From: Spirochaetia bacterium | GTDB taxonomy: Bacteria > Spirochaetota > Spirochaetia > SZUA-6 > Bin103 | Length of the DNA: 64,000 nt | Assembly: GCA_965203905.1 (NCBI GenBank) | Contig: CBDBDQ010000005.1 | Span: 6,592,001-6,656,000 of the forward strand | Reading direction: 5' to 3' | Shown: piece by piece, positions 2,644 through 60,609 of the stretch | How the letters are laid out: every line of letters begins with the position of its first letter | How positions within the stretch are numbered: position 1 is the first letter of the stretch | The notes under the pieces: generated by a model | What the model was told of the DNA's origin: nothing | Database searches by the model: none | Seen by the model: the letters and a program-made list of their open reading frames with translations, nothing else | Program-made: the position numbers and the translations under genes

Positions 2644-2736
2644 CAGAATATGGAGATAGTACCTCACACTTCGCGTCCGTCAACCGGCAGGCCTGCCCCT
2701 GCAGGTCCTTGCGAGGGCGTATGGTAGGCTGACCGC

Positions 2737-32597: not shown

Positions 32598-34445
32598 CTA
32601 GCGACCCATTTCTGCCTTGAGCTGACTGTCGACCCAGAGACGGGCCCATACATTCAAGTACTGTTGTGATCCGAAGCCGCCTTCGCCGCCATAACCCATC
32701 ACCCACGGCTGGTGCACGGCAAAATCTGGGGCCGTGGGCCCCCAGATCATCCAGTGCTGCTCCAGGTGGCGCATGTCCATCTCTCTAATCGGCCTGGTCT
32801 GCTCCTCTACGGTGGTAGCGGCTACCATTTCCTCATACAGGGCGTCATATTGCGCGTCGTGCTGTGGTATGTGGTGCCACCCAGTAGAACCGCCGTAAGA
32901 CATGGACATCTGCGACCACGGCTCACCTTTGGCGCCTGTAGAACCGACCCACATGTCCCAGTCACCAATACCCCCGGCAGCGCGAACGGGGCGTGCCGCT
33001 GTTAATCGGGGGATTATTTCACCGATGGGAATCGGCTGAATATTGAGCTTGATGCCGACGGCCCCCCAGTATCCGCCCAATAATTCCGGCCAGCTCACAT
33101 CGCCACCCTCGATGAACAGGTAGGTGGTCTCGAATCTAATGCCGTCCGCGCCACGGGGAAGCCCGGCCTCATCGAGCAGCTTATTGGCCCCGTCCAGGTC
33201 ATACCTGTAGTATTGCTTGATCTCTTCGGGCCAGTCTTCGAACGCGACGCAATACCCGGTGGCGCAGAAACTGTTGTTCACCAGCCCCATAGGTGTCGTA
33301 TCCGCAAATCCCTTGAAGTAGGTAGCGTTGATGGTCTCGAGGTCCAGTGCCATCTGCATCGCCCGTCGCACCCGGATGTCGTCAAAGGGTGGCTTGGCCG
33401 TGTTGAGCTTGGTCGCATGATTCGTCCGCTGTGCAAACTGGATCACCACGAGCTCTGGGTTGGTCCGCATGAGGCTCTCTGCCTGGTCTATGGAGGCTAT
33501 TTGAGAGTTGCCCTGCCAACCTGCGTAATCGGCCTGACCCGAGCGCAGTGCCGCCATGATGGTCGCCGGCTCGCTCATATACAGGGCCTTTAGCTCGTCG
33601 ACATAGGGTAAGCGGTTCTCCGGGTACTTCTCGTCGAAGCCCCAGTAGTTGGGATGCTTGGTGTAGGTGAGGGAGCTGTCCGGGACGAAGTCGGTCATCA
33701 TGAAGGGCCCGGTGCCGACGACATTCCTCCAATCCTGCATATCCCCGTATTGCTCGATTACCTCGGGGGGCTGTATGAAGATGTAACGCTGGTCCAACAT
33801 GTGCTGCTCTGCACGGAGTCTTGGCTCCTGCAGCTTCATAACAACCGTCCAATCGTCGGTGGCCGTTACCGATTCCCAGGGCAGAGTACCGAGGGGGCCT
33901 GCTGCCGGGGAAGGTTCGGCTTCGCTGAACCGGGTCCCGGTCAACTTGTTTCCCAACATGCGGTGAAAGTTGAACTCGACATCCTGGGCAGTGAGCTCCC
34001 GCCCGTTCATAGGCGGCTTGTCATGCCAGTGAACGCCCTGGCGGATGTGGAAGACATAAGTGGTGGCGTCGGGCTGTTCCCAGCTCTCCGCCAGGGCCCC
34101 GGTAAGGGCGGACAGAGGCGGGGAATAGCCGCCGACGAAATGATACGCGTCCCTGTCTATGGCCCAGTCCACCGTGCCCAGTTTCTCTAGCACGCCGCTC
34201 ATGACTTGCCCCGCTCCACTGCCAAACCAGGGGTCGCGAGGCTCAACAGTGCTTTTGAATACGTAGATAAGTGTTCCGCCATACTCTGGCGCGGTGAACA
34301 CCTTGCCGGTGACCGGGTCGGTCACGTACCTCTTGTCAGCGGCGGCTGCCGGCTGCTCTTCTTCGCCGGCGGCCCAGAGGCCGGTTGCGGCAAGAACGAG
34401 ACCGACCAGTACGGCCAAGCACGTTCTGCAGGTTGCGAATCTCAT
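32598..34445 (-). CDS. ABC substrate-binding protein family 5 (cassette 1)
   Basis: AAGGAG RBS; MRFATC signal peptide; APEYGG, WHDKPPMNGRELTA, GTGPF, NRLPYVD. Confidence 0.92.
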   Translation of the reverse strand: MRFATCRTCLAVLVGLVLAATGLWAAGEEEQPAAAADKRYVTDPVTGKVFTAPEYGGTLIYVFKSTVEPRDPWFGSGAGQVMSGVLEKLGTVDWAIDRDAYHFVGGYSPPLSALTGALAESWEQPDATTYVFHIRQGVHWHDKPPMNGRELTAQDVEFNFHRMLGNKLTGTRFSEAEPSPAAGPLGTLPWESVTATDDWTVVMKLQEPRLRAEQHMLDQRYIFIQPPEVIEQYGDMQDWRNVVGTGPFMMTDFVPDSSLTYTKHPNYWGFDEKYPENRLPYVDELKALYMSEPATIMAALRSGQADYAGWQGNSQIASIDQAESLMRTNPELVVIQFAQRTNHATKLNTAKPPFDDIRVRRAMQMALDLETINATYFKGFADTTPMGLVNNSFCATGYCVAFEDWPEEIKQYYRYDLDGANKLLDEAGLPRGADGIRFETTYLFIEGGDVSWPELLGGYWGAVGIKLNIQPIPIGEIIPRLTAARPVRAAGGIGDWDMWVGSTGAKGEPWSQMSMSYGGSTGWHHIPQHDAQYDALYEEMVAATTVEEQTRPIREMDMRHLEQHWMIWGPTAPDFAVHQPWVMGYGGEGGFGSQQYLNVWARLWVDSQLKAEMGR

Positions 34446-34762
34446 GGGAAATCTCCTTCTTCGAGAGCACTCGACGACTGCTCCCCTCGTCCGCTCTCGA
34501 AGTCCGGCTTCAGGGCCGGTTACTGGCAGGGAGAGAGGGCACTTGGCATCAGCTACCTCCGCACCTCCTGTCGCCTGCCATGGTACACACCCCGAATGGG
34601 CCGTCAAGCACGTACCACGGCAGACCGCGCGCTACCCAGGATGTCGACGTGGTCGTGGAGACCAACGGCGCGACGCGGCCTGCGCGAAGGAATGAGTAAG
34701 CTCATCGCGTGTCCGTGCGCGGCGGATCCATGGCCCAGTGCTTTGGGCACGGCGATGTTGGC

Positions 34763-40681: not shown

Positions 40682-42475
40682 TCAATGCCCCATTTCTTGC
40701 TTCAGATCATGGTCAACCCAGAGACGGGCGAAGATCGGAAATTTCAGCGCTCCTATTCCGGCTTCGCCGTTATATCCTTTGATCCACGGCTGCGTGACAT
40801 GAAATAATGGGGTGTCGGGACCCCATATTACCCAGTGATTCCTGATCAGGTGCATGTCCATCTCTATAAGAATCTGTTTCTGTTCCTCATAGGTGCCAGC
40901 GGCCAAGGCTCTTTCGTACAAGCCGTCGTAAACCGGGTCGTTGCTCGCAACTGCGTTCCACGGACTCTCGGAGGAAAAAACGCCCACTGACAGTATTGGG
41001 TCAGCTACACCTGCAGCTCTCGTACCGGTCATGTCAAAATCTCTGGCTCCTATAGCCGCCACAGCTACCGGGCGGTCAACCACCTCGATCTCCATATCGA
41101 CTCCAATCTCACGCCAGTATGCAGCGACCAACTGGTCATAGCTTAGATCCGACTGCGCGGCGCTGCGCAGTAACGCGAACTTGAATCTGACGCCGTCGTC
41201 GCCACGAGGGTATCCGGCCTCATCAAGCAGCTCCTCTGCTCCCTCAGGATCATAGGTGTAGGCATCCTTGACCTCCTGAGGCCACTCTTCGAACGGGACG
41301 TAGAACCCGAGCACCGATGTCATCCCCATAGGTGTGGTACTTCCATAACCCTGAAAGTAGCTGTCGTTGATCGTCTCCAGGTCCATTGCCATCTGCATGG
41401 CGCGGCGCACCCGGATGTCGTCAAAGGGCGGCTTGCTTATGTGCGGGGTAAAGACGTTTTCGTTACCTTCCGAGAACGGCCAAATAATGAGTTCTGGACT
41501 TGTCTCCTTGAGCTTTTCGATCAGGTCGATAGACCGAACTTGGGAAGTTCCCGCCCAGCCTACGAAGTCAACCTGACCTGCGCGTAGTGCCGCCAGAAAT
41601 GTCGCTTCCTCCGGCATGATCGTCCACCTCAACTCATCAATGTAGGGCAAACGGTTCTCCGGGAACTTCTCGTCGTAGCCCCAGTAATCAGGATTCTTGC
41701 TATAGGCAAGTAAGCTACCCTCGACATAGTCATCCAGCACAAAGGGACCGGTACCTACCAGGTTCCTCCAATCCTCCATGTTGCCGTGTTCATCGATTAC
41801 CTCGGGGGGGTAGATAACCATACTATACCAGTCCGTGACAACGTTCACCGTACGGAGGTACGGTTGCTTCAGCCTGAACACAACGGTGTACTTGTCTGTG
41901 GCCGTTATCGACTCCCATTGGGGACTCCCGAGCTCACCTATTCCCGGGCTCGGTTCCGTGAAGCCGCTTCCCATACCCAACATGCGATGAAAATTATATT
42001 CGACATCCGCGGCGGTGAACTCCCTTCCGTTCATCGGGGGCTTGTCGTGCCACCGAACGCCTTGGCGGATATGGAAGGTATAGGCGAGGCCGTCGGTTGA
42101 AATCTCCCAGCTTTCGGCCAGCGAACCCTGTATCACGTGAATAGGCATCACGTAGCCGCCCTGAAAATGATACTCGTCCCTTGGCTTTGCCCAGTCCAAC
42201 TTGCCCAGCTTCTCTACCACGCCACCGACGGGTATATGCGCTATACCTGCAGTGTAGGTGTCAAACTGCCATGTCCAATCGAGCTTCATCACCCCGGTTA
42301 TGGTCCCGCCGTACTCCGGCGCGGTCACCATCTTGCCGGTGCTTGGGTCCAGCACCATTTCCTTTTCCGAGGCGGCTGCCGGCTGCTCTTCCGCGGCAGC
42401 GGCCCAGAGGCCGGTGGCGGCCAGAACCAGGACCAACGCAACCGCGAAGGTGGTGCCAATCTTTACCAGTGTCAT
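40682..42475 (-). CDS. ABC substrate-binding protein family 5 (cassette 2)
   Basis: Same conserved blocks as the cassette 1 SBP. Confidence 0.93.
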   Translation of the reverse strand: MTLVKIGTTFAVALVLVLAATGLWAAAAEEQPAAASEKEMVLDPSTGKMVTAPEYGGTITGVMKLDWTWQFDTYTAGIAHIPVGGVVEKLGKLDWAKPRDEYHFQGGYVMPIHVIQGSLAESWEISTDGLAYTFHIRQGVRWHDKPPMNGREFTAADVEYNFHRMLGMGSGFTEPSPGIGELGSPQWESITATDKYTVVFRLKQPYLRTVNVVTDWYSMVIYPPEVIDEHGNMEDWRNLVGTGPFVLDDYVEGSLLAYSKNPDYWGYDEKFPENRLPYIDELRWTIMPEEATFLAALRAGQVDFVGWAGTSQVRSIDLIEKLKETSPELIIWPFSEGNENVFTPHISKPPFDDIRVRRAMQMAMDLETINDSYFQGYGSTTPMGMTSVLGFYVPFEEWPQEVKDAYTYDPEGAEELLDEAGYPRGDDGVRFKFALLRSAAQSDLSYDQLVAAYWREIGVDMEIEVVDRPVAVAAIGARDFDMTGTRAAGVADPILSVGVFSSESPWNAVASNDPVYDGLYERALAAGTYEEQKQILIEMDMHLIRNHWVIWGPDTPLFHVTQPWIKGYNGEAGIGALKFPIFARLWVDHDLKQEMGH

Positions 42476-43165
42476 ACGTAACTCCGTATGTGGATTATCG
42501 AGAGTATTGCGCAGCGGACGCCCGCTCCCTGGCTACTCTCGCGCCCGCAACGCGGGTGGCCAGAAAGAGTCAATGGCCTGAAGCGCGCGACGTGCGACTC
42601 ACCGGGTTCACGTCGCGCGTGCGAGCGGTTCTTTGAGTATTACTTGCACCTCGTGTGGGCCGCGAACACCCGCAGGGGGGCCGCCGGCGACCCGCGATGC
42701 CCCGAAGTCATGCACCGTGGCGTGCGACGACACGGCAAAGCGTAGAAGGGGGAATGCGCGGCCAAGCGGTCCGGGAGTCACCGGACCGCGGAAATACGCG
42801 CCCTCCCGGGTGCGCCCCGGACGCTGCGTCGGGAGGGCGCGTCCAGTGCGTTTCAACGCACAGATCAACCAGTGCGACAGGACCGGACGCCGCGGTTCAG
42901 GCGGCGGGGATCCAGGACCGTTGCAGCGGCCACCGAACGAACGTGCCTTGAGCCGACGCCGAAGGTAGTCGGCCGCAATCCGGATGCGCAACGCGAAGGC
43001 CGCCGGGCGCTCCGCCGAAGCGGTTAAAGAATTATCATATAAAGAGTTGACTCGTGATGCGTGGGCCCGGGGGGGGGGGGGATGCACCGGCCGCATCGCT
43101 GCCATCCGGTTACTGGGCGGACGGTCCTGATGGCGTATGATCCTCATCCGTTTGCCCCTTGGGGT
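42476..43165 (-). ncRNA. candidate long structured 5' leader RNA (copy A, intact)
   Basis: Homologous to 55629-55763 + 60085-60535; many hairpins with compensatory changes; two c(UUCG)g loops on the - strand. Confidence 0.55.
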
Positions 43166-43169
43166 TTTC

Positions 43170-43198
43170 ACTGTTTCACGCGCGCTTTGAGATGTCAA
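43170..43198 (-). promoter_or_regulatory. putative sigma70 promoter of leader copy A
   Basis: TTGACA-17 bp ending TGA-AACAGT; spacing conserved in copy B (60567-60539). Confidence 0.55.
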
Positions 43199-43295
43199 GC
43201 TCGCGAACTCAACGGACTCAATCCGACTATCGTCCCCACGTGCACGGAGTGACCGTGAGTCGTGAGTCGGGAAATCGTAGTCGGCGGCAACGAGG

Positions 43296-44224
43296 TCAGA
43301 CCGGCATGGTTCGCTTGGTGTAGGCGCGTCCCGCGGCGGCGAAGTCCGGGCTCGGACAGGTGAACACTTGGCCGCCACGGTCGATCATGGTGGGGAGGTC
43401 GTCGATCACGTGGGTCTTATGGAAGGCGACGCCGTGCTCGCGGCACGCCGCCTCCACGCGCCGGTCGAGTTCTACCATCTCGTCCGACCAGGGGTTGGGC
43501 AGGCTGCGGTAGCCGAGCGAGAGGCTCATGTCGCCCGGTCCCATCTCCGCGTATCCGATACCCGGCACGGCCAGGATCTCTTCGATGTGCGGAATTGCGG
43601 CCTGCGACTCGATCTTGACCCCGAGCAGGAGTTCGCCGTCGGGGTTCAGCGGCCACGGGTCCGCCTTGGCGAGGTAGGTGTCGCGATCAACGCCCCAGAT
43701 GTGGGCGGCGCTGCGCTCCGACCCGACGCCGCGCATGCCCACCCCGAGCCCGGCGCCGAGCCGGTTGACCGGGTAGCGGCACGCCTCCACGAATGCCCGT
43801 ACCGCGTCCGCGGTGGTGGCCTGACACAGCATGATGCCGTGCGCGCCACGCCCCAGGATCTGCTGAAACTGCCACAGGTTGGCCCACACCACCTCGCGCG
43901 AGTAGCCGCCCACCGGCGCCTCCACGATGATCGGCGGCGTGCGGTGGCCGCTGGGCGTCGGGCCGCCGTCTACCAGGCCGCCCAGGTAGCGCTGCAGCCC
44001 GGCCAGGTCGTACGCCCCATGCTCGAACCCGACGTTGATGTAGTCGGCCCAGGTGGCGGCGTCGACGGTGCCCTGTTCGTGGGTCAGGACCGGGCTGTCG
44101 TGCGCGGTCAGGGTGCCGGAAGGCCGGCTGTCGGCGGTCCAGGGTGAGCCGGTGTGACCGCCGGTGTAGTAGATCGGTTGCCCTTGAGCCAGGAGTTCGA
44201 TGGCTCGGTGATGCGCTGTGCCAT
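43296..44224 (-). pseudogene. HpcH/HpaI aldolase-like protein with a 5' frameshift (possibly a sequencing error)
   Basis: MAQRI then a 1-nt gap into RAIELLAQGQPIYY; FEHG, VKIES, MGPGDM. Confidence 0.75.
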
Positions 44225-44310
44225 GCCGCGTCAAGTGTATCAGGTCGGCGGTGCCGGCGGGAGCGAATTCAGGCCGGCGCCCTCCGCACCGGCGGGCGCC
44301 GGCAGCAGGG

Positions 44311-44964
44311 CTACCGCCAGCGGTCGATGTGGACGATTTCCGTGGCCGGGGGCCGCGCGGCCGGGCGCCACTCGCCGCCGGTGGTATAGGCAACCGGCAG
44401 CAGGCACACCTGCAGCACGTCGTCGGGCAGGCCCAGCAATTCGGCAGCCTCGCGTTCGCCGCCCAGGTGCACGGTGGTCAGCACGGAGCCGAGGCCGCGC
44501 GCCCGCAGCGCGAGCTGAAACGACCACACCGCCGGCAAGATGGAGCCGTAGCGACCGGCGAGGTTGGCGTTGGTGGGGTGTTCCGGCCAGCGTCCGGTGA
44601 TGCAGGGGATGACGTGCACCGGCACGCGCGCGAGCCGCTCCATCAGGAACAGCGCCGAGGCGTACACGCGGCGCGTCTGTGCGGTGCCGGCGTTCGCCAA
44701 GCCCTGACGCAAAGCGCGCTCCCCGGCGCGGCGGTAGATACCGGCGAGCGCGGCTCGGGTGGCGGCGTCCTCCACCACGATCCAGCGCCAGCCCTGGGCG
44801 TTGCCGCCGGTCGGCGCCTGCTGCGCCTGTCGAATGCAGTCGAGAATCACGTCCCGCTGGACCGGCCGGTCGTAGTCGAGCCGGCGGCGTACGGCGCGTG
44901 TGGTGGTCAGCAGGTCCTCCACGACCTGGAGATCGAGTGTGTTGGGCGCAGCAGCCACGGTCAC
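44311..44964 (-). CDS. nitroreductase family protein
   Basis: LLTTTRAVRRRLD, APTGGNAQGW, LRARGLGS. Confidence 0.9.
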   Translation of the reverse strand: MTVAAAPNTLDLQVVEDLLTTTRAVRRRLDYDRPVQRDVILDCIRQAQQAPTGGNAQGWRWIVVEDAATRAALAGIYRRAGERALRQGLANAGTAQTRRVYASALFLMERLARVPVHVIPCITGRWPEHPTNANLAGRYGSILPAVWSFQLALRARGLGSVLTTVHLGGEREAAELLGLPDDVLQVCLLPVAYTTGGEWRPAARPPATEIVHIDRWR

Positions 44965-48960: not shown

Positions 48961-50741
48961 TCAGAATCCCATTTCTTTCTTCAGCGCACTATCAATCCAG
49001 AGGCGGGAGAAGATCACTTCCTCCCCCCCGCTTAATATCATTTCACCGTTGTAGCCTATGAGCCATGGCTGGTTCACCGAAAACTGTGGAAGCAACGGAC
49101 CATATATCGTCCAATATTGCTCCAATGCGTACATGACCAAGTCTGGCACCAGCCTGTCCCGCTCCTCGATGGTGGTCGCGGCTGCGGCTGCGGCATGCAT
49201 GGCGTCATAAGTCGGGTCGCTGACGTTGCTATTTACACCATCCGTGGTAAACCCACCCATGATTGACACCGCCCACTGCATGGAAACAGCATACGCCGTA
49301 TCGTTACTGGTCATTTCGTATTCCTGAGCTGTTCTTCTGGGGCCCCATGCAGCTGCTGGCGTTACTTCAATCTCCACGTCTACGCCAATCTTATCCCAGT
49401 ATGAAGCGGCTAATTCCGCATAGTTTAGATCGAAGCGCTCGAGATGCATCAACTTAGTCTTGAATCTAGTTCCGTCCGCGCCGCGAGGATACCCAGCCGC
49501 ATCAAGCAACGCTTCGGCCCCTTCCGGGTTATACGTGCGGGCCTTCCGGAGCTCTTCGGGCCACTCTTCGAATGGGATGGACCCACCTTTCATGAAACGG
49601 CCCAGTCGCCCTTGAGGTATCGGGTCTCCAAAACCCTTGAAGTACGAATTGTTGATTGTCTCGAAGTCCAGTGCCATGTTCATTGCCTTGCGCACCCTGA
49701 TGTCGTCAAAGGGTTCTATCTGAGTGTTCATGGCAAAACCATTATCCGACCGAAACCGTACCGGCCATAATTCGACTTCGGGATTGGTCCGCTGGATGCT
49801 CTCTACCTGCTCGACAGTCCTGAGTTGAGCTACCCCGGCCACACCGACGTAATCAACCTTGCCCGTGCGCATTGCCGCCAGTTGTGTTGCCACTTCGGGC
49901 ATAATCAGAGCCCTTAACGTGTCAACATACGGCAAGCGGTTCTCCGGGTATTTTTCGTCGTAGCCCCAGTAGCCAGGATTCTTGCTATAGGTGATAGAGC
50001 TGCCCTCGGTCCAGTCAGTCAGCTCAAAAGGACCGGTGCCGACTAGGTTCCTCCAATCCGTTACATCCCCGTGTTCCTCGATCACCTCGGGGGGGTACAT
50101 GACAGCAAGGGAGTCGTCGAGGATAACCATCAGCGTAAGGAGATTTGGCTCCTTCAGCTTGAAAACAACGGTCGATTTGTCGGTGGCCGTTATGGATTCG
50201 AATGACACCCTGGTCAAGAGACTATAAGCGGCGCTGGGTTCGGTGAAGCCGCTGCCCAGACCCAGAGTACGGTGAAAGTTGTATACGATATCGTCGGCAG
50301 TCAGCTCCCGACCGTTCATTGGTGCCTTTTCGTGCCAGTGAACGCCCTGGCGGACTTTGACGATAACGGTTTTGTCGTCGGGCATTTCCCAGCTTTCCGC
50401 CAGAGCCCCCCTCGTGTAATTTGGAGCGGCCATAGTCGGGAAGCTATATTCGTCCCTGGGCGTTGCCCAGTCGCCGATGCCTAACTTCTCTACGACCAGG
50501 CCCGCGGCCACCACACCCCCACTCAAATGTTTGTCAGTATGCGAAGGCGATTCTTTCTTGACGTAGGTTATGGTCCCGCCATACTCCGGCGCGGTCACCA
50601 TCTTGCCGGTGGTCGGGTCGGTCACCATTTCCTTCTCCATCGCCGCGGCCGGCTCCTCCTCCGAGGCAGCCGCCCAGAGGCCGGTGGCGGTCAGTGCGAG
50701 GCCACACAGCACGGCGAGCGAATGCGCATTACGAAATGCAT
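48961..50741 (-). CDS. ABC substrate-binding protein family 5 (cassette 3), probable frameshift in the signal peptide
   Basis: AGGAG RBS precedes ATG 50741 (MHFVMR), out of frame with LAVLCGLALTATGLWAA; body intact. Confidence 0.85.
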
Positions 50742-51283
50742 CAGATAACTCCTGTTGCTCAAGAGTACTGAATCGACTGCCGGCCCCTCGCCTACTCTCG
50801 AGTTATGCCTGCTTCAACGCCGGCGAGCACAAGCGAGGGCGACAGCGCGGGTCCCCAGGCGGTACGGCGCTTGGAGACGAGCCGGGTTTAGTCGTAACCG
50901 GTCTTGGGTGCCATCCCATCCTCCTTTGACGTGCGCGCACCACCGGCCGTTCGGATCGCGTCGGGACCTGCGTCCCAGCGTCCACGCGGCTGGCGAGGCG
51001 AGTTGGATTGGCCGGCGACGCCGACGGTGGAGTTGACGAGTGGTTGATGAGGCCCGTGCGCCGGTCTCGGCGCTGGGCGGACACCGCGCGAGGCGTCGGG
51101 TCGGTTAGCCGTGTTGGGGGGAGGAGGGGGGGTACGGCTATGGACGGGACGTTCGTGACGTACATAGCACTCTCGGAAACAGGAGAGCACGGAACGAGGA
51201 TAATGTCAACAAGCATTCTTGCCGCCGTGTCGGCGGCGTTTGCAATACAATGTGCTCGACCAACGGACAGGAGGCTACGTCAC

Positions 51284-55628: not shown

Positions 55629-55944
55629 ACGTTTCTCCGTATGTGGATTTTTCGAGAGTATTGCGAAGCGGATTGCCGCTTCCTGGCTACTCTCGCGCCC
55701 GCAACGCAGGCGACCAGCCAGATAGAGTCAACTTCCTGAAGCGCGCGGCGTGTGACTCACCGTTATTGCGTTGCGCGCCCAAGGGCGGGGTGAGGGCGTA
55801 CCGGTTGCAGTGACGATGACGTAGGCGGAGGAGCGACAGGGGCGTAAAGTGTGAAGCCCGCAGCAGGTAAATGCTGCGGGCTTCACTTTTAGGCGGCCTC
55901 GGCGAGCGGAAGACAACCGCCCGCCGAGGCCCGAGAGGCAGCGA

Positions 55945-56769
55945 GTGTCCGAGGGTGCAACCGAGGCACACGCGCTCCCGTTCGCGACGACGAACTACCA
56001 GGCGGATCAGGACGGAACCTTGCGCGCCGTGCTGCCGTCGCGGTGTGTCTACGCCACGGGGGAGCAGACGTGTGCCATCTTCGTCGATCATTACCGCGAG
56101 CGCAAGACCGGGCCCCGCTATCCGCTAGCGGTGGTGGGGTGCGGGGTGCATGGGGGCCGGCGCTACACCCTGTATCCGCCCGGACACTACCCCTACGGAC
56201 GGGTGGCGGTGGTGCCCTACAGCGCAGGCGGAGACGTGCTGTTGGACGCAACCGGCAAACGACCGCAGTGGCAGGTGACGCTGTTCGGGGCCGCGCAGGA
56301 TGCGAAGCAGGGGAAGCTGTGGCCAGCCGAGCAGCACTGGTGGCAAGCGTTGAGTACGCCCTGCCGGCGCATCCAGGGACGGCGCCTGGAGCTGGCCGGT
56401 CGGTTGACCGGGGTCAGCCCGGAGTTGGACCAGCGGCAGCGGGAGCAGATCGCGACGCGCTTGGGAGTGGCGACCATGACCGTGCTCTGGGGAGCGCGCT
56501 GCTGGGGGCGCAGCTGGCGCAGCCGCGGCGTAGCGATCATGGCGGTGTTGCTGGCGCTGGCGGTCAGCGCGACGCTGGGGGAGCGCATGGGTGCGGCTGG
56601 TGCGGTCAGCGACCTGTGGGGGCCACCGCGCCCGCGGCTGGTGGCGCGCTGGGAGCAGGCCGGCCAGAGCTGGGTGGTGGCCGCGAGCGGTCGTTCAGCA
56701 GCGCGGGAACAGGGGGTTGTCGACCACCTTCGGGGACGGGCGCCCCCGGCCACGAAAGCGCTTATTTGA
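55945..56769 (+). CDS. transposon ORF1, hypothetical Cys/His-rich (putative Zn-binding) protein
   Basis: C..C...H.RERKTGP....CGVH...TLYPPG.PYGR; first gene of a co-oriented run inside the IRs. Confidence 0.65.
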   Translation: MSEGATEAHALPFATTNYQADQDGTLRAVLPSRCVYATGEQTCAIFVDHYRERKTGPRYPLAVVGCGVHGGRRYTLYPPGHYPYGRVAVVPYSAGGDVLLDATGKRPQWQVTLFGAAQDAKQGKLWPAEQHWWQALSTPCRRIQGRRLELAGRLTGVSPELDQRQREQIATRLGVATMTVLWGARCWGRSWRSRGVAIMAVLLALAVSATLGERMGAAGAVSDLWGPPRPRLVARWEQAGQSWVVAASGRSAAREQGVVDHLRGRAPPATKALI

Positions 56770-56798
56770 AGCCTCCCGTACGGCGCTACGGTAGGCGC

Positions 56799-58205
56799 AT
56801 GAATGATTCGTCACGTCCCCCGTTACCGATCTCGGCTACCGCGCTGCTGCGCTACCTGGTGATCGCCGAGATGGAGGCCCTGGTGTTGCGCGGGTGGCCT
56901 GCGGGCGCCGCGGTACGCAAGGTTGCCCGCGCACCGCGGATCGACCTGGACGGTCGTCCGGTGCGGATCAGCGTGCGTACCCTGCAACGCTGGCGCGCGG
57001 CCTGGGCGAGCGGTCGGCTCGCCGCCCTGGAGCCGCAGCCGCGCACCCGCACCGAGACCTCACTGGCGCTGAGTCCGCAACTGGTCACCTTTCTGCGCAC
57101 CGAGAAGCAACGTGATGTGCGCGCCTCGGTGCCGGAACTGGTGCGGCGGGCGCGCGAGCGCGGCATCATCCCGGTCGACGCCAAGATCGATCGCACCACG
57201 GTGTGGCGCGCCTGTCGGCGAATGGGCCTGCCGACGCGTCAGCGACCACACAAACACGAAGCGGACACGCGTCGCTGGCGCTATGCCGAGCGCATGCAGT
57301 GCGTGCTTGCCGACGGCAAGCACTTCCGCGCCGGCGCAGCGCGGCTGCGGCGGGTGGCGCTGTTCTTCCTCGACGATGCCACCCGCTACGGCCTGGAGGT
57401 GGTGGTGGGCACCGCGGAGTCCAGCGAGCTGTTCCTGCGCGGCCTCTACGAGGTGGTCATGCACCACGGCACTGCGGATCTGTACTACCTGGACAAAGGC
57501 CCGGGCTTCATCTCCAAGGACACCCTGGCCGTGGTCCAGGGCGGCCTGGGCACCTTGCTGATTCACGGCGCCACCAGGTATCCCGAGGGCCACGGCGCCA
57601 TCGAGCGCTTCCATCGCACCGCTTACGATCAGGTGCTGCGTTCCTTCGACGGTGCCGCCGACGTGGACCCCGCTTGCCAGGCACTCACGCTGCGCCTGCG
57701 CCACTTCCTGAACCGCTACAACGACACCCCGCACGAGACGCTCGGCAAGGACACCCCGCGCCAGCGCTGGGAGCAGGGACGGGAGTTGCGCTTTCCCACC
57801 GACGAGGCCGATCTGTATCGCCGCTTCGTGGTGCGCGCCATGCACAAGGTCTCCAACGATCACGTCATCAAGGCCGCCGGTCGGTTGTGGGAAGCGCCGC
57901 GCCGCAGCGCCCGCTGTTGGGTCGAGGTGGCGCGCCACGTGCTCGACGGGCGGCTGTGGGTTCAGCACCAAGGGCGCATGATCGAGCTGGCCGAGCTGGA
58001 TCCCCACGCCAACGCGACCTCACCGCGCGGCTCCGGCAGCGCGCCACAACCGACCGCCGACGAGGACGGCGAGGAACTCCCCGCCACCGCGGCCGGCATC
58101 GCCTACGCCAACGACACCCGCCCGCTGGTCGACCCCGACGGCGGCTACCGCGACCCGCAGGACGACCAACAGGACGACCAACACGTCCAGGAGCAGCAGC
58201 CATGA
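56799..58205 (+). CDS. DDE transposase (rve/Mu-like)
   Basis: N-terminal HTH SVRTLQRW; ADGKH, FLDDATRY, YLDKGPGF, GAIERFHRT, YNDTPHETL. Confidence 0.9.
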   Translation: MNDSSRPPLPISATALLRYLVIAEMEALVLRGWPAGAAVRKVARAPRIDLDGRPVRISVRTLQRWRAAWASGRLAALEPQPRTRTETSLALSPQLVTFLRTEKQRDVRASVPELVRRARERGIIPVDAKIDRTTVWRACRRMGLPTRQRPHKHEADTRRWRYAERMQCVLADGKHFRAGAARLRRVALFFLDDATRYGLEVVVGTAESSELFLRGLYEVVMHHGTADLYYLDKGPGFISKDTLAVVQGGLGTLLIHGATRYPEGHGAIERFHRTAYDQVLRSFDGAADVDPACQALTLRLRHFLNRYNDTPHETLGKDTPRQRWEQGRELRFPTDEADLYRRFVVRAMHKVSNDHVIKAAGRLWEAPRRSARCWVEVARHVLDGRLWVQHQGRMIELAELDPHANATSPRGSGSAPQPTADEDGEELPATAAGIAYANDTRPLVDPDGGYRDPQDDQQDDQHVQEQQP

Positions 58206-59005
58206 GCCACGACCTCAGCCCACTGGGCTTCCGCAAGACCCCCTTTACTCGCGAGTTGACCGTGCGCGAGTGCTTCCCGCTCGAACCTCAGGCCCAGGTC
58301 GCCGCCGCACTCACCGCGGCGGTGCAGGAGCGCATGAGCGCCGCCCTCATCGCTCCCGCCGGCACCGGCAAGACCGTCGCCTTGCGCATGCTCGTCGCCA
58401 CCCTGCCGGAGGTGCGCTTCCAGGTCCACTACGTCAAGGTGACCGGCCTCTCCAAGCGTGACCTGTGCAAGGAAATCGCGGTCGCCTGCGGCCTCTCTCC
58501 CACCGGGATCTATCCCGCTCTGGTGCGCAAGCTGCAGGACGCGTTCGAACATACCGTCAGCGACGGCATGCGCCCCGTCATCCTGCTCGACGAAGCCCAT
58601 GATCTGCGCCCCGAAGCGTTGGCCATGTTGCGCGTCCTCACCAACTTCACAATGGACAGTCGCCTCGTCGTGTCCCTCGTGCTCGCCGGCCAGCCACTCC
58701 TGAAACTGCTGCTCCGGCGCCCTGAACAAGCCGCCATCGCGCAGCGCCTGGCGCACTACGCCGAACTGCGCCTGCTGTCCCGCGATGAGACCCGCGCCTA
58801 CCTCGAACATCGCTGCACCCTCGCCGGCGCTCGCACCAATCCCTTCGACGACGACGCTCAGGAAACCATCTTCGAAATGAGCCGCGGCAACCTGCGTGCC
58901 ATCGACCGCTTGGCCCTGGCGGCGCTGCACCACGCCGCCAAGTCTTCTCACACCACCGTCAGTGCCGGCGACGTGATCGCCGCGCGCAAGTACCTGTGGC
59001 CATGA
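58202..59005 (+). CDS. ExeA-like AAA ATPase (transposition helper)
   Basis: LGFRKTPF, APAGTGKT, LLDEAHDL, LAGQP, SRGNLRAID; ATGA overlap with transposase. Confidence 0.88.
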   Translation: MSHDLSPLGFRKTPFTRELTVRECFPLEPQAQVAAALTAAVQERMSAALIAPAGTGKTVALRMLVATLPEVRFQVHYVKVTGLSKRDLCKEIAVACGLSPTGIYPALVRKLQDAFEHTVSDGMRPVILLDEAHDLRPEALAMLRVLTNFTMDSRLVVSLVLAGQPLLKLLLRRPEQAAIAQRLAHYAELRLLSRDETRAYLEHRCTLAGARTNPFDDDAQETIFEMSRGNLRAIDRLALAALHHAAKSSHTTVSAGDVIAARKYLWP

Positions 59006-59940
59006 CCACACCGCTGCCCACCGTTCCGGTGCATGCCATCGATCCCCAGCCCGACGCTCCCCAGTGGCTGGTGCGCGACCTCTGGACCACCGCGGCTGTC
59101 GGCGTGATCGGGGGCAGCCCCAAGGTTGGCAAGTCCTGGCTCGGCCTTGACCTCGCCGTCTCGGTCGCGTCCAGCACCCCGGCCCTCGGGCGGTTCCCGG
59201 TCGAGGCCACCGGCCCCGCCCTGGTCTATCTCGCCGAGGATGCTCTGCCACGCGTCCGCGACCGTGTCGCCCACTTGTGCCGCCACCGCGGTTTGGATCT
59301 GGCACGCCTCGATCTGCACGTCGTCACTGCTGACCGCTTGCGCCTCGATACCGAGCGCGACCAGCTCGCTCTCGACCAGACCGTGCAACGGATCCGCCCG
59401 GCACTACTGCTGTTGGACCCTCTGGTCCGACTTCATTCCCTCGATGAGAACAGCGCTTCAGACATCTCTTCTCTGCTCGGCTTTCTGCGCGCACTCAACC
59501 GCCGCTATCAACTCGCTGTGGTCCTCGTCCACCACCTGGCCAAGCGCTCGCGCCGCAATCTCGGCCAGTCCCTGCGCGGCTCCTCCGATCTGCATGCCTG
59601 GACCGACTCCGCCTGCTATCTGGTGCGGCGTCCCGACGACCGTCTGCAACTCACCGTCGAGCATCGCTCCGCTCCCGCTCCAGACCCCCTGCTGTTGCGC
59701 CTCTCAGGCGGCGCCGACCAGCCCCTCTCGCTGCTCGTCGACAACGCTGCCGCCGCCCCGCCTCCCCCGCTCGCCGAGGCGGTGCGCGCCACGCTCCGCA
59801 GCGCCGGCCAGCCGCTCTCCAGGACCGCTCTGCGGCAACGCTTGCGCGTCAACAACGCCCGTCTCGGTCTCGCCCTCCAAACTCTCCAACAGCACGGCCT
59901 CGCCGTCCGCGGCCCCAACGGCTGGCACCTGCCGGCCTGA
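59002..59940 (+). CDS. AAA_25 / RepA-like RecA-fold helicase with C-terminal wHTH
   Basis: WLVRDLW, GSPKVGKS, YLAED, LLDPLVRLH.LDEN, VHH, LRGSS; ATGA overlap with the ATPase. Confidence 0.85.
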   Translation: MTTPLPTVPVHAIDPQPDAPQWLVRDLWTTAAVGVIGGSPKVGKSWLGLDLAVSVASSTPALGRFPVEATGPALVYLAEDALPRVRDRVAHLCRHRGLDLARLDLHVVTADRLRLDTERDQLALDQTVQRIRPALLLLDPLVRLHSLDENSASDISSLLGFLRALNRRYQLAVVLVHHLAKRSRRNLGQSLRGSSDLHAWTDSACYLVRRPDDRLQLTVEHRSAPAPDPLLLRLSGGADQPLSLLVDNAAAAPPPPLAEAVRATLRSAGQPLSRTALRQRLRVNNARLGLALQTLQQHGLAVRGPNGWHLPA

Positions 59941-60084
59941 CCGGCACCGTCGCCTGCCTACTCGCTCTCGTTCCGCCATTCCCGCGTTCCGCACCAGGGA
60001 CGCGCTCGGAACGGAACGACCACCGTACACACTCCGTGCCAACTATCGTGCAACTCGCCTCGGCTCAGGGCGCGCAACGCAACA

Positions 60085-60535
60085 ACCGGGTTCACCCGGG
60101 CTCACGCCGCGCGCGCGAGCGGCTCTTTGAGTACTACTTGCACCTCGTCGTGGGGGCAGGGAGTAACCCGGCCGCGGAGAACCCACGGCACCAAGACGCG
60201 CCCCGGACGCTGCGCCGGGAGGACGCGCATAGTGCGTCGGAGCGCGCATTTCAAGCAGCGCGACAGGATAGCACGCCGCGATTCAGGAGCCGGGGATCCA
60301 GGACCGTTGCAGCGGCCAGTGAACGAACCTGCATTGGACCGGCGCCGGAGGTAGCCGGCCGCAACCCGGATGCTGAAGTCGAAGGCCGCGGTGCGATCAG
60401 CCGGAGCGGTCAGTTTCTCGGTTCGAATAGCTGCCGGGGGGGACGATTGGATGCACCGGTTGCGTCATCGCCATCCGGTTACTCTGCAGACGGCCGTGAT
60501 GGTGCATTATCCGCATCCGTTCGATCCTGAAGTTT
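60085..60535 (-). ncRNA. candidate structured leader RNA copy B, distal part (proximal part at 55629-55763)
   Basis: Collinear homology to ~42601-43165 with an internal gap; c(UCCG)g loops in place of c(UUCG)g. Confidence 0.5.
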
Positions 60536-60609
60536 CGTAGCATTTCACGCTCGCTTGGAAGTGTCAAGCTCACCCCCCGGGCCGGGACGGACCGGAGTTG
60601 GCATGGGAG

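What the first reader, a model, noticed from the sequence alone, without database searches (positions are those of the whole stretch)
42476..43198. Candidate ~690-nt structured leader RNA upstream of family-5 SBP genes, in two diverged copies with covariation
Seen: this intergenic region is collinear with 55629-55763 + 60085-60567, which is the same region split by a transposon. Both copies start at an equally spaced - strand promoter-like motif (TTGACA-17-TGA|AACAGT versus |AATGCT), and homology stops just beyond it. Substitutions preserve pairing: GCGCGCGACGTG/CACGTCGCGCG becomes GCGCGCGGCGTG/CACGCCGCGCG; CCGAC/GTCGG becomes CCGGC/GCCGG; the AGCGG/CCGCT and GCCATC/GATGG stems are kept while their loops vary. 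Two - strand c(UUCG)g loops (42960-42963, 43016-43019) are both c(UCCG)g in copy B (60346-60349, 60402-60405), staying within the stable UNCG tetraloop family. Copy B lacks a ~100-nt hairpin-containing block. I recognise no known riboswitch, T-box, RNase P or tmRNA signature. Inference: a large undescribed cis-regulatory RNA or ncRNA linked to an expanded SBP family. Caveat: some G-T pairs fit the + strand better, and two copies give little statistical power.
Basis: partly seen in the sequence, partly recalled or inferred. Interest (0 to 1): 0.85.

Follow-up and report, generated by a model that had tools for sequence, protein, structure and literature searches.

The report
Multi-copy uORF leader of transporter genes
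This stretch is the promoter and long 5' leader of a transporter binding-protein gene, one of dozens of copies per genome that share a tiny upstream reading frame and a conserved RNA fold, probably an undescribed gene-control device of one uncultured bacterial lineage.

Summary
42476-43198 (- strand) is collinear with 55629-55763 + 60085-60571, which a 4.3-kb transposon splits, and the listed compensatory changes are there.

It is not a two-copy 690-nt RNA. It is one member of a modular leader family.
- The proximal ~190 nt occurs 33 times in this genome, and 27 of those lie directly before ~600-aa SBP_bac_5 paralogs. Congeners carry 1-103 copies.
- This part holds a Shine-Dalgarno site and an 11-codon uORF (MILKEPHARAA*). 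The start is NTG in 58/63 copies, and third codon positions vary 3-4 times more than the others.
- The uORF stop lies inside a 12-bp GC hairpin. A small hairpin follows, then a probable pseudoknot next to the SBP ribosome-binding site, then a hairpin over the start codon.
- A sister leader type, present in the window before the third SBP, keeps the pseudoknot with real covariation. Its uORF differs: an 8-codon one, or a bare start-stop.
- The distal part is a conserved TTGACA promoter unit with a mini-ORF, a hairpin and a poly-C tract, often in tandem, followed by C-rich, G-poor modules.

Rfam has no match.

Most likely it is a ribosome-occupancy, possibly Rho-linked, cis-regulatory leader. 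The mechanism is inferred, not shown.

The parts
43170..43198 (-). Sigma-70-like promoter: -35 TTGACA at 43198-43193, a 17-nt spacer, and -10-like AACAGT at 43175-43170. The predicted start is near 43163.
   Evidence: Sequence. In 30 family units the -35 is exact in 18 and matches at 5 of 6 or better in 27, always 43-48 nt before module M1. The -10 has A2 and T6 in 23 of 30. The strict consensus scan does not call it in copy A, where the -10 matches at 3 of 6.
43075..43151 (-). Module M1: a 5' mini-ORF (first ATG 43147-43145; the family peptide begins M-K/T-R-H-D-D-S-Q-R-S-D-R) followed by a conserved hairpin (ACCGG.../...CCGGU).
   Evidence: 36 nhmmer hits in this genome, often in tandem about 125 nt apart. 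The start is ATG in 26 of 30 and GTG in 2 of 30. Non-consensus counts by codon position are 55/59/98. The hairpin is kept in 23 sequences with only 1 covarying pair. Copy A has ATC at the usual start, but an in-frame ATG lies two codons upstream.
43070..43082 (-). Poly-C tract of 13 C on the - strand.
   Evidence: Sequence. 18 of 21 full M1 copies carry a C run of 6-16. One copy carries a 7-nt repeat six times instead.
42903..43033 (-). Module M2: a C-rich, G-poor stretch with short local hairpins.
   Evidence: 24 nhmmer hits, all on the gene strand. 18 of the 24 lie 171-511 nt before a proximal-element (SBP) start, 2 lie about 2.0-2.4 kb before one, and 4 have none within 70 kb. No consensus fold was found and there is no 3-base periodicity. 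The C-minus-G excess averages +0.05 to +0.12 from -640 to -240 over 33 leaders.
42773..42900 (-). Module M3, a rarer module.
   Evidence: 4 hits in the genome, counting copies A and B.
42659..42760 (-). Module M4, the block that copy B lacks.
   Evidence: 6 hits in the genome. It appears as a gap in B in the alignment.
42608..42651 (-). Shine-Dalgarno site (AGGTG, 42651-42647) and the 11-codon uORF, 42643-42608, with stop TGA at 42610-42608. In copy A the start position reads GTA; an in-frame GTG lies at 42649-42647.
   Evidence: Start column in 63 sequences: ATG 42, GTG 9, CTG 4, TTG 3, GTA 3, AGG 2. For codons 2-6 the non-consensus counts by codon position are 10/12/39. Each of the three letters of the aligned TGA stop is kept in 58-60 of the 63 rows.
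42583..42619 (-). P1: an 11-12-bp GC hairpin whose 5' arm holds the last uORF codons and the stop. The loop varies in size.
   Evidence: 96% of cells are paired in 63 sequences, and 3 of 12 pairs change on both sides. The loop length varies widely between copies, including long inserts. In copy B the transposon sits in the loop.
42559..42563 (-). Pseudoknot arm a (CUGGC).
   Evidence: It pairs with arm a' at 42533-42529. Both arms are intact in 43 of 63 type-I copies, with no covariation there. The equivalent helix in type II/III leaders is 7 bp and covaries.
42543..42557 (-). P2: a small hairpin (CCCGC-GUU-GCGGG).
   Evidence: 95% of cells are paired. The cell counts are 39 G-U and 7 A-C, with 5 U-A double changes.
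42500..42540 (-). P3a (GAGAGUA/UACUCUC) encloses pseudoknot arm a' (GCCAG, 42533-42529) and hairpin P3b.
   Evidence: 94% of P3a cells and 87% of P3b cells are paired. The same P3a helix in type II/III leaders changes on both sides in 6 of 10 pairs.
42473..42490 (-). P4: a 6-bp hairpin with the SBP Shine-Dalgarno site in its loop and the SBP start codon (42475-42473) in its 3' arm.
   Evidence: It is predicted in all 5 single-sequence folds. 68% of cells are paired, and 3 of 6 pairs change on both sides.
40682..42475 (-). The SBP_bac_5 gene served by leader copy A, followed by a permease gene.
   Evidence: Pfam PF00496, E 7e-76. The next ORF matches BPD_transp_1.
60085..60571 (-). Copy B, distal part: promoter, M1, M2, M3, the uORF and the 5' arm of P1.
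55629..55763 (-). Copy B, proximal part: the 3' arm of P1 through P4, directly before SBP 53841-55628.
55764..60084 (+). Transposon-like insertion that splits copy B inside the P1 loop.
   Evidence: Terminal inverted repeats and a 3-bp duplication were read. Its ORFs match HTH_32 weakly (E 4e-4, below the curated cut-off) and AAA_25 (E 4e-33).
50713..51209 (-). Sister ('type II') leader of the third SBP in the window (48961-50712). It has TTGACA at 51209-51204, a poly-C tract, a Shine-Dalgarno site plus an 8-codon uORF (MAPKTGYD*, 50914-50888), and the pseudoknot domain.
   Evidence: Sequence. There are 17 hits in the genome. The same profile also matches type-I copy A at E 5e-10.

Best explanation
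The interval is the promoter and the ~690-nt 5' leader of an SBP/ABC-transporter operon. It is one member of a lineage-specific, highly multi-copy leader family.

Shown:
- A conserved -35/-10 unit starts the leader.
- The transcript region begins with a mini-ORF, a hairpin and a poly-C tract (M1).
- It continues through C-rich, G-poor modules (M2-M4).
- It ends in a ~190-nt conserved domain. That domain holds a strong Shine-Dalgarno site, an 11-codon uORF whose stop lies in the 5' arm of a 12-bp GC hairpin (P1), a small hairpin (P2), a probable H-type pseudoknot (a/a' crossing P3a), and a hairpin over the SBP start codon (P4).

Inferred mechanism: expression is set by ribosome occupancy of the leader.
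- The long untranslated C-rich stretch with its poly-C tract is a loading site for Rho. The genome has a rho gene.
- Ribosomes on the first mini-ORF cover the poly-C tract.
- A ribosome on the Shine-Dalgarno-led uORF melts P1. It also restores ribosome cover just before the pseudoknot and ribosome-binding-site domain, so the polymerase reaches the SBP gene.
- The pseudoknot and P4 then set how well the SBP start is used.

Sister leaders keep the Shine-Dalgarno site and a uORF at the same place but with another peptide, or with only start-stop. So the parked or translating ribosome probably matters more than the peptide.
For: Family and linkage:
- nhmmer finds 33 copies of the proximal part. 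27 of the 33 are followed by a 574-660-aa ORF with the shared SBP N-terminus.
- Model R1 finds 34 copies in this genome and 1-103 in seven congeners. 6 of 6 sampled loci have the SBP 167-182 nt after the uORF start.

Constraint:
- The leader is 78-82% identical where the SBPs are 50-53% identical in protein and 47-55% at third codon positions.

uORF:
- The start is NTG in 58 of 63 copies, with the first letter free (A 44, G 12, C 4, T 3). A GGAGG-type site lies 5-8 nt upstream.
- For codons 2-6 the non-consensus counts by codon position are 10/12/39, mostly synonymous (GAA>GAG 14, CCG>CCN 9).
- Type II leaders carry an 8-codon uORF with synonymous changes and a TAA/TAG stop change. Type III leaders carry a Shine-Dalgarno site plus ATG TAG.

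Structure:
- 88.5% of cells pair, against 25-59% when the partners are slid. 16 pairs change on both sides, against 9.9±1.8 in shuffles (2 of 500 reach it).
- G-U outnumbers A-C in P2 (39:7) and P3b (30:14), as expected for folding of the gene strand.
- Pseudoknot in type II/III: 8 of 17 pairs change on both sides, against 3.9±1.3 in shuffles (0 of 500). The covariation score is 0.223, against 0.152 shuffled and 0.05-0.10 slid.
- Single-sequence folds give P1-P4 as separate hairpins. Blocking the uORF end melts only P1.

Promoter.

Rho:
- C exceeds G from -640 to -240, and C runs of 6-16 occur in 18 of 21 full M1 copies.
- The genome has a Rho_RNA_bind match, E 4e-33, in a 573-aa frame.

RNA library:
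- Contigs of two runs from one study lie on the SBP gene and on the proximal leader. The summed depth is 2100-4040 in bins 42378-42631, against 0-63 over the neighbouring gene, which DNA runs do cover.
- These are contigs at 90% likeness or more, so paralogs are pooled.
Against: - No step of the mechanism is shown.
- Copy A has non-canonical letters at both mini-ORF starts (GTA and ATC), although in-frame GTG and ATG lie two codons upstream of each. It may be a weak or decaying member.
- P1 is not followed by a U run, and no terminator-like site is found on the - strand.
- No alternative pairing links the uORF to the SBP ribosome-binding site.
- P1 shows no strand preference: G-U 15 cells, A-C 14.
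- In type I the pseudoknot arm is only 5 bp and does not covary.
- Covariation counts are cells, not independent events, and the copies are related.
- The C excess is a crude proxy for a Rho site. Rho's role in this phylum is unknown to me.
- The uORF peptide is conserved within each type, which fits a peptide role as well as mere occupancy.
- Raised third-position identity in the signal-peptide codons (0.71 against 0.48) suggests that gene conversion of a 5' cassette adds to the conservation.
Confidence: 0.4

Rival explanations
1. A constitutive high-expression leader with no switch. Tandem promoters, 5' hairpins and a translated mini-uORF serve only to make very abundant, stable and well-translated SBP mRNAs, for example by protecting against RNases and keeping the leader open.
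For: - Up to four promoter-bearing M1 units stand in tandem before some paralogs.
- The folds are independent stable hairpins with no alternative pairing.
- The same leader serves 30-100 paralogs that probably bind different substrates.
- RNA-library contigs over the SBP and proximal leader are far deeper than over the neighbouring gene.
Against: - A stabiliser does not explain the amino-acid-level conservation of the uORF.
- It does not explain the stop codon placed inside P1, or the pseudoknot kept next to the ribosome-binding site across leader types.
- A 0.5-kb C-rich untranslated stretch is a liability for high expression unless it is used.
Confidence: 0.22
2. The proximal pseudoknot domain is an aptamer or a protein-binding site. 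It would be a riboswitch or an autoregulatory operator that senses one common signal and gates the SBP ribosome-binding site. The uORF would be accessory.
For: - The helices a/a' and P3a cross, and the arrangement is kept in leader types with different sequences.
- Covariation exceeds the shuffles and the slid controls.
- The domain ends 4-13 nt before the SBP Shine-Dalgarno site.
- Unpaired stretches are highly conserved.
Against: - There is no Rfam match, even at E<=1.
- The loop between a' and the 3' arm of P3a differs wholly between types: a hairpin in type I and a single strand in type II. That is unlike a fixed ligand pocket.
- In type I the a/a' arm is 5 bp with no covariation.
- No ligand or protein is suggested by the gene context.
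Confidence: 0.17
3. A contingency (phase-variable) switch. Slippage of the poly-C tract, or of the 7-nt repeat, changes the frame of the first mini-ORF and hence how far ribosomes run into the leader. Individual SBP paralogs would turn on or off in subpopulations. The conserved 5' cassette (leader plus signal peptide) would also allow recombination between paralogs.
For: - C runs of 6-16 occur in 18 of 21 full M1 copies, with lengths differing between copies. One copy has a 7-nt repeat six times at the same place.
- The mini-ORF length ranges from 18 to 209 codons. 5 of the ~41 mini-ORFs scored by the script run in frame to the uORF stop; in copy A the 256-aa ORF from the ORF listing likewise ends at that stop.
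- The conserved start of M2 carries stops in two frames (TAA and TGA), read.
- Leader similarity is decoupled from SBP similarity, and synonymous sites of the signal peptide are unusually conserved.
- Contigs of two DNA-type runs break at the tract, at 43066-43105 (table 8).
Against: - No length heterogeneity was measured. Contig breaks at homopolymers are expected from sequencing error alone.
- Poly-C is equally explained as a Rho-binding tract.
- Open frames are common in 66% G+C DNA.
Confidence: 0.1
4. No function of its own. The similarity would reflect recent duplication or gene conversion of the 5' ends of paralogs, a selfish dispersed repeat, or a decayed protein gene.
For: - The family is multi-copy.
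- Third-position identity is raised in the adjoining signal-peptide codons.
- Distal modules are shared patchily, as deletional decay would give.
- A 256-aa ORF (42608-43378) spans copy A.
Against: - Position and orientation before SBP genes are fixed in 27 of 33 copies.
- The NTG start and the third-position pattern of the uORF, the G-U over A-C bias in P2 and P3b and the covariation are signs of selection.
- The nearest relatives of copy A are in other species, at 85% and 83%.
- The long ORF has no Pfam match. It is broken in copy B by 17-nt and ~108-nt indels. It is not kept in other copies, and M2 has no codon periodicity.
Confidence: 0.06

Closest known systems
Rho-dependent leaders with a short ORF: the Salmonella mgtA leader with mgtL, corA, and E. 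coli tnaC-tnaA (recalled from the literature, not read here)
   Same: A long 5' leader, a short Shine-Dalgarno-led ORF whose translation state decides read-through, a C-rich stretch available to Rho, and structured RNA elsewhere in the leader. In mgtL/mgtP proline codons matter; here the first mini-ORF runs into a CCC run.
   Different: No homology. Here there are two mini-ORFs, a stop codon buried in a GC hairpin, a pseudoknot at the ribosome-binding site, and tandem promoters. The same leader is reused before 30-100 paralogs. Rho dependence is untested.
Leader-peptide attenuators of the trp/his/pyrBI type (recalled)
   Same: A short leader ORF overlaps the 5' arm of a strong hairpin, so a ribosome prevents the hairpin from forming. 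This is the pyrBI logic.
   Different: There is no U tract after P1, no antiterminator alternative and no run of regulatory codons.
Bacterial upstream ribosome-binding sites and uORFs, and start-stop elements. Sources: PMC13285730 on Sinorhizobium (search listing and start of abstract only); PMC7815308 on E. coli 5' UTR 3' ends (listing and start of abstract only); the plant NIP5;1 AUG-stop (recalled).
   Same: A Shine-Dalgarno site plus a start codon upstream of the main gene acts through ribosome occupancy. Type III relatives here have a bare ATG TAG.
   Different: Those are single-gene cases. Here the element is part of a conserved structured module multiplied across a gene family.
Phase-variable multigene families with a conserved 5' cassette, such as the Mycoplasma vlp/vsp genes (recalled)
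   Same: The 5' untranslated region and signal peptide are much better conserved than the mature protein, and a homopolymer tract lies near the promoter.
   Different: The tract lies after the promoter, inside a mini-ORF, not in the promoter spacer. The proteins are solute-binding proteins, not surface antigens. Variation is not shown.
Corynebacterium ilvB-II motif, a candidate RNA motif re-read as a uORF (PMC10272879; search listing and start of abstract only)
   Same: A conserved 'RNA motif' upstream of a gene whose conservation is largely explained by a short translated ORF.
   Different: It is a single-locus amino-acid attenuator. It is not multi-copy, and as far as I saw it has no pseudoknot.

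Membership tests
Any Rfam 15 family (riboswitches, T-box, leaders, sRNAs) | A covariance-model match at the gathering score | tested here: not met
   0 matches in the whole window at gathering score. At E<=1 over 42400-43300 the only match is a chance-level group-II fragment on the + strand, 11.8 bits against a cut-off of 49.
Leader-peptide transcription attenuator (trp/his/pyrBI type) | A short ORF with its own Shine-Dalgarno site in the leader | tested here: met
   The start is NTG in 58 of 63 copies, a GGAGG-type site lies 5-8 nt upstream, and third positions vary most.
Leader-peptide transcription attenuator (trp/his/pyrBI type) | An intrinsic terminator (hairpin plus U run) controlled by the ORF | tested here: not met
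   P1 is followed by UUCA-type sequence. The scan finds no terminator-like site on the - strand.
Leader-peptide transcription attenuator (trp/his/pyrBI type) | Mutually exclusive terminator and antiterminator pairings, and a run of regulatory codons | tested here: not met
   Folds with the uORF end blocked change only P1. The peptide MILKEPHARAA has no codon run.
Rho-dependent leader attenuation with a uORF (tnaC, mgtL, corA type) | A C-rich, G-poor stretch of untranslated leader RNA | tested here: met
   The mean C-minus-G excess is +0.05 to +0.12 from -640 to -240 over 33 leaders. C runs of 6-16 occur in 18 of 21 full M1 copies. This is a composition measure only.
Rho-dependent leader attenuation with a uORF (tnaC, mgtL, corA type) | A rho gene in the genome | tested here: met
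   PF07497 match, E 3.7e-33, within a 573-aa open frame.
Rho-dependent leader attenuation with a uORF (tnaC, mgtL, corA type) | Rho-dependent 3' ends in the leader that respond to uORF translation | not testable with these tools
   Only assembled contigs of RNA runs were available.
Riboswitch (new class) | A conserved multi-helix core supported by covariation | tested here: inconclusive
   The pseudoknot (a/a' with P3a) is supported in type II/III. In type I it is only conserved. The third loop is not conserved between types.
Riboswitch (new class) | Specific ligand binding | not testable with these tools
Translation attenuation (ermC/cat type) | The leader ORF overlaps a hairpin whose other arm sequesters the downstream ribosome-binding site | tested here: not met
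   The 3' arm of P1 lies about 110 nt before the SBP Shine-Dalgarno site. The start codon is held by a separate local hairpin, P4.
REP/MITE-type dispersed palindromic repeats | Copies scattered without fixed relation to one gene family or strand | tested here: not met
   27 of 33 copies are directly 5' of an SBP paralog, on the gene's strand. 6 of 6 sampled copies in relatives are the same.
Simple-sequence contingency locus | A slippage-prone repeat between the promoter and the gene | tested here: met
   Copy A has C13. The family shows runs of 6-16, and one copy has a 7-nt repeat six times.
Simple-sequence contingency locus | Tract-length heterogeneity within a population | not tested

The most novel reading that the evidence does not exclude
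A lineage-specific 'leader cassette' places 30-100 solute-binding-protein paralogs per genome under one ribosome-sensing, Rho-linked switch. The cassette consists of tandem promoters, a poly-C mini-ORF, a C-rich tract, a mini-uORF or start-stop, and a pseudoknot. Each copy can in addition be toggled on its own by slippage of its poly-C tract. This would be a combined regulon-wide and stochastic control of nutrient-uptake repertoire, of a kind not described in bacteria.
Probability: 0.1. Interest if true: 0.85.

Novelty: new variant of a known kind. Interest (0 to 1): 0.62.

Why it matters
Solute-binding proteins are often reported among the most expressed proteins of nutrient-scavenging bacteria (recalled, not checked here). 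Almost nothing is known about gene control in this uncultured lineage. MAG labels of relatives point to Chloroflexota, but they are inconsistent.

A single reusable leader placed before up to ~100 paralogs in a 4.9-Mb genome would be a large post-initiation regulon built from cis elements instead of many regulators. It offers several things:
- a new RNA motif (uORF plus pseudoknot) for Rfam-type libraries;
- a natural series of uORF types (11 codons, 8 codons, bare start-stop) that tests whether ribosome parking or the peptide matters;
- a warning for gene callers, which will call long false ORFs across these high-G+C leaders.

It is not a new principle. uORF- and Rho-linked leaders are known.

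Tried and rejected
- **Decayed or real protein gene across the leader: rejected.** The 256-aa ORF 42608-43378 has no Pfam match. The A/B indels of 17 and ~108 nt break the frame. The open frame upstream of the uORF ranges from 12 to 1308 nt among copies, and only 5 of ~41 mini-ORFs reach the uORF stop. M2 shows no codon periodicity. I ran no protein-database search with this ORF.
- **Sigma-54 promoter at CTGGC-N8-TTGC inside the proximal domain: rejected.** The spacing is one base longer than the consensus I recall, and the letters are better explained as pseudoknot arm a plus P2.
- **Rare-codon sensing at ATA: rejected.** ATA makes up 20% of Ile codons in 29 SBP genes.
- **A switch between the ATACTC repeat in the uORF and the 3' arm of P3a: rejected.** Only 5 bp are possible, and it is not predicted.
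- **UNCG tetraloops as a conserved feature: rejected.** See the observation check.
- **A consensus fold of M2:** RNAalifold returned almost nothing.
- **M1 hairpin:** it is conserved, but only 1 pair covaries.
- **RNA evidence for the distal leader.** The two RNA-library runs (one study, contigs only) have no cover over 42759-43393, while DNA-type runs do.
- **Habitat.** Runs labelled sponge or coral metagenome hold 0.21-0.31 of the sampled words. I did not lay them, so I make no habitat claim.
- **Distribution outside the genus (not found in those searched).** BLAST found the element in 0 of 13 sister-genus genomes and 0 of 17 genomes from other families of the order. Model R1 gave one marginal hit (E 4e-4) in 13 sister-genus genomes. 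Model R2 matched 4 of 151 class-wide genomes, all in the own genus (1 of 87 genera), under stricter filters with only 18 candidates scored per genome.
- **Literature.** Four full-text searches listed nothing on such a leader in Chloroflexi or before SBP genes. I saw listings and abstract starts only and read no paper. Supplements were not consulted.
Full report
**1. The observation**

The window is G000:C5:6592001-6656000, from a 7.99-Mb genome with about 66% G+C.

- The interval 42476-43198 lies between an SBP_bac_5 gene (40682-42475, - strand; Pfam E 7e-76) and an HpcH-type aldolase gene (43296-44393).
- Read on the - strand, it is collinear with 60571-60085 and then 55763-55629. Identity is 72.5% over 433 nt (E 2e-61) and 84.3% over 134 nt (E 3e-34).
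- A ~4.3-kb insertion separates the two pieces. It has terminal inverted repeats and a 3-bp duplication.
- The two SBPs are only 51% identical (309 of 601), although their first ~60 residues are nearly the same.

**2. It is a family, not a pair**

- An iterated nhmmer search with the last ~200 nt of copy A finds 33 places in this genome.
- 27 of the 33 are followed, within a few bases, by a 574-660-aa ORF with the shared N-terminus.
- Of the other six, two have frames that are off, two have no long ORF, and two are fragments.
- BLAST finds the element in 7 of 10 other species of the genus. It finds none in 13 sister-genus genomes or in 17 genomes from other families of the order.
- A covariance model of the uORF+P1 part (R1) counts 34 copies here. 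In seven congeners it counts 50, 62, 103, 33, 8, 1 and 1. Three congeners have none, and the sister genus gives one marginal hit.
- All 6 of 6 sampled hits precede an SBP paralog.
- The closest leaders in other species sit before SBPs that are only 50-53% identical to SBP A, with 47-55% identity at third codon positions. Those leaders are 78-82% identical to copy A proximally and 74-77% in the shared distal modules.
- So the non-coding DNA is under much stronger constraint than synonymous sites, or it is homogenised.
- Third-position identity is also raised in the signal-peptide codons (0.71, against 0.48 a few codons later). Some cassette-like exchange is therefore likely in addition to selection.

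**3. Anatomy of the proximal ~190 nt (63-sequence alignment A2)**

(i) A GGAGG-type Shine-Dalgarno site lies 5-8 nt before the uORF start.

(ii) The uORF has 11 codons, with consensus peptide MILKEPHARAA*.
- The start column reads ATG 42, GTG 9, CTG 4, TTG 3, GTA 3 and AGG 2. The first letter is free and the second and third are nearly fixed.
- In codons 2-6, which lie outside any helix, non-consensus letters by codon position number 10, 12 and 39. Most are synonymous (GAA>GAG 14, CCG>CCN 9, ATA>ATT 4, AAA>AAG 3).
- This is the signature of a translated frame.

(iii) The last four codons and the TGA stop form the 5' arm of P1, a 12-bp GC hairpin.
- Its loop varies widely in length between copies.
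- The transposon in copy B and the long inserts in three other copies sit in that loop.
- Such variable arm spacing argues for a hairpin and against a protein operator on double-stranded DNA.

(iv) P2 is a 6-bp hairpin.

(v) P3a encloses P3b.

(vi) P4 is a 6-bp hairpin with the SBP Shine-Dalgarno site in its loop and the AUG in its 3' arm.

On my hand-drawn structure, 88.5% of cells pair, against 25-59% when the partners are slid. 16 of 44 pairs change on both sides, against 9.9±1.8 in shuffles (2 of 500 reach it). The covariation score is 0.102 against 0.083 (0 of 500).

G-U against A-C cells are 39:7 in P2 and 30:14 in P3b, which fits folding of the gene strand. They are 15:14 in P1 and 10:10 in P3a.

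Single-sequence folds of five copies return P1-P4 as independent hairpins. Forbidding pairing around the uORF stop removes only P1, at a cost of about 20-31 kcal/mol.

**4. A sister leader shows what is deeply conserved**

The third SBP in the window (48961-50712) has its own long leader. It has TTGACA at 51209-51204, a poly-C tract, a C-rich stretch, and then a Shine-Dalgarno site with an 8-codon uORF (MAPKTGYD*, 50914-50888).

- A profile built from its 17 relatives in this genome also matches type-I leaders, including copy A at E 5e-10. The two types are therefore homologous.
- In 24 aligned type II/III leaders (A5) the uORF takes one of two forms:
  - the 8-codon form, with synonymous changes and a TAA/TAG stop change;
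  - a bare start-stop, read by eye. It is a Shine-Dalgarno site plus ATG TAG in five rows, TTG TAG in one row, and ATG plus two codons plus TAA in one row.
- The domain next to the ribosome-binding site is the same in all of them. Arm a comes first, then a P2-like hairpin, then the 5' arm of P3a, then arm a' 0-2 nt later, then a loop, then the 3' arm of P3a. Helices a/a' and P3a cross, so this is an H-type pseudoknot.
- On A5, 87.6% of cells pair, against 38-56% slid. 8 of 17 pairs change on both sides, against 3.9±1.3 in shuffles (0 of 500). The covariation score is 0.223, against 0.152 shuffled (0 of 500) and 0.05-0.10 slid.
- In type I the arms are CUGGC (42563-42559) and GCCAG (42533-42529). 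Both are intact in 43 of 63 copies, but they do not covary.
- That two leader types keep complementarity at the same two places with different letters is the best argument for the pseudoknot.
- A model of this domain (R2) matched 4 of 151 genomes sampled across the class, all of them in the own genus (1 of 87 genera). Filters were strict.

**5. The distal ~500 nt is modular**

M1 has 36 hits, often two to four in tandem about 125 nt apart. It begins with a promoter.
- TTGACA is exact in 18 of 30 units and matches at 5 of 6 or better in 27 of 30.
- It always lies 43-48 nt before the M1 core, with a -10-like hexamer (A2 and T6 in 23 of 30) after 16-18 nt.

The M1 core holds three things.
- A mini-ORF. 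Its start is ATG in 26 of 30 and GTG in 2 of 30. Variation by codon position is 55/59/98.
- A conserved hairpin with little covariation.
- A C run of 6-16 in 18 of 21 full copies. Copy A has 13.

M2 has 24 hits and is C-rich, with no consensus fold and no codon periodicity. M3 and M4 are rare.

Over 33 leaders, C exceeds G from -640 to -240 relative to the SBP start.

The frame of the mini-ORF is not kept through the leader. A protein gene spanning the leader is therefore excluded.

**6. Expression**

- Contigs from two RNA-library runs of one study lie on the SBP gene and on the proximal leader. Depth there is far above that over the neighbouring aldolase gene, which DNA-type runs cover evenly.
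- One 72-nt RNA contig bridges the SBP start and P3/P4 (42472-42542).
- These are contigs laid at 90% likeness or more, so paralogs and strains are pooled. They cannot give a transcript start.
- The lack of cover over the distal leader is not evidence (see Tried and rejected).

**7. Mechanism**

Shown:
- a conserved promoter unit;
- a translated-looking uORF whose stop is buried in a hairpin;
- conserved helices, including a probable pseudoknot next to the ribosome-binding site;
- a C-rich, poly-C-bearing spacer;
- a rho gene.

Inferred: ribosome occupancy of the leader decides whether the polymerase and ribosomes reach the SBP gene.
- Rho is the likely executor on the naked C-rich RNA.
- The uORF ribosome melts P1 and restores cover just ahead of the pseudoknot domain.
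- The start-stop variants argue that occupancy is the common denominator, not the peptide.
- The peptide conservation within types I and II leaves room for a nascent-peptide effect.

I put this at about 0.4. The rivals are a plain high-expression or stability leader (0.22), an aptamer or protein-binding pseudoknot (0.17), poly-C phase variation (0.10), and no function or gene conversion only (0.06).

**8. Comparison and novelty**

- No Rfam family matches.
- Four literature searches listed nothing on such a leader (listings and abstract starts only).
- In logic it is closest to the Rho-linked uORF leaders (mgtL-mgtA, tnaC) and to pyrBI-type hairpin occlusion by a ribosome. These comparisons are recalled, not read here.
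- It fails the defining tests for a classical attenuator: no U-tract terminator, no alternative pairing and no regulatory codon run.
- What is new is the combination and the scale. One cassette is multiplied before tens to a hundred paralogs. It has three interchangeable uORF forms, a pseudoknot at the ribosome-binding site, tandem promoter units and a slippage-prone tract.
- I file it as a new variant of a known kind.

**9. Taxon**

Public MAG records that encode related SBPs are labelled Dehalococcoidia, Aggregatilineales, 'Spirochaetia' or just 'bacterium'. Chloroflexota is therefore a reasonable but unverified placement.

Noticed in passing
window 55764-60084: A ~4.3-kb transposon-like insertion with terminal inverted repeats matching at about 17 of 18 positions and a 3-bp target duplication. 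It encodes a 720-aa ORF with a weak HTH_32 match (E 4e-4, below the cut-off) and a 314-aa AAA_25 ATPase. It lies exactly in the loop of hairpin P1 of leader copy B and cuts that SBP gene off from its promoter and uORF.
   Followed up: partly
window 60574-62255 (transposase ORF 60794-62239): An IS110-family transposase gene (DEDD_Tnp_IS110 plus Transposase_20) lies a few bases upstream of the -35 box of copy B. A piece resembling the region upstream of other copies' promoters reappears at 62331-62256. The element probably interrupts the upstream region of copy B and explains why A/B homology stops there.
   Followed up: partly
window 48961-51209 and 34424-34583: There are two more leaders of the sister types in the window. 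The third SBP has a type II leader with the uORF MAPKTGYD*. A type III-like copy at 34583-34424 reads AGG TAG at the start-stop position.
   Followed up: partly
G000:C5:3636071 onward (locus L086): In one leader the usual poly-C tract is replaced by a 7-nt unit repeated six times at the same position after M1. It is another slippage-prone repeat.
   Followed up: no
loci L033 and L035 (public MAG records, lower G+C): Upstream of related SBP genes in other MAGs lie tandem ~165-nt AT-rich repeats, each with promoter-like motifs. Promoter arrays before these SBP genes may be a wider habit of the group, with unrelated sequence.
   Followed up: no
SBP paralogs, first ~60 codons (for example window 42475-42296): The signal peptide and the Ala/Glu-rich linker are much better conserved among paralogs than the mature domain, also at synonymous sites. 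This suggests a shared 5' cassette that extends into the coding region.
   Followed up: partly
upstream of the -35 boxes of M1 units (for example window 43199-43260): Short GAGTC / GTGAC(G/C)TC-like words recur just upstream of many TTGACA boxes. They may be a binding site for a transcription factor.
   Followed up: no
window 42608-43378 (- strand): A 256-aa ORF with no family match spans the whole of leader A and ends at the uORF stop. Gene callers are likely to annotate such false ORFs across these high-G+C leaders.
   Followed up: yes
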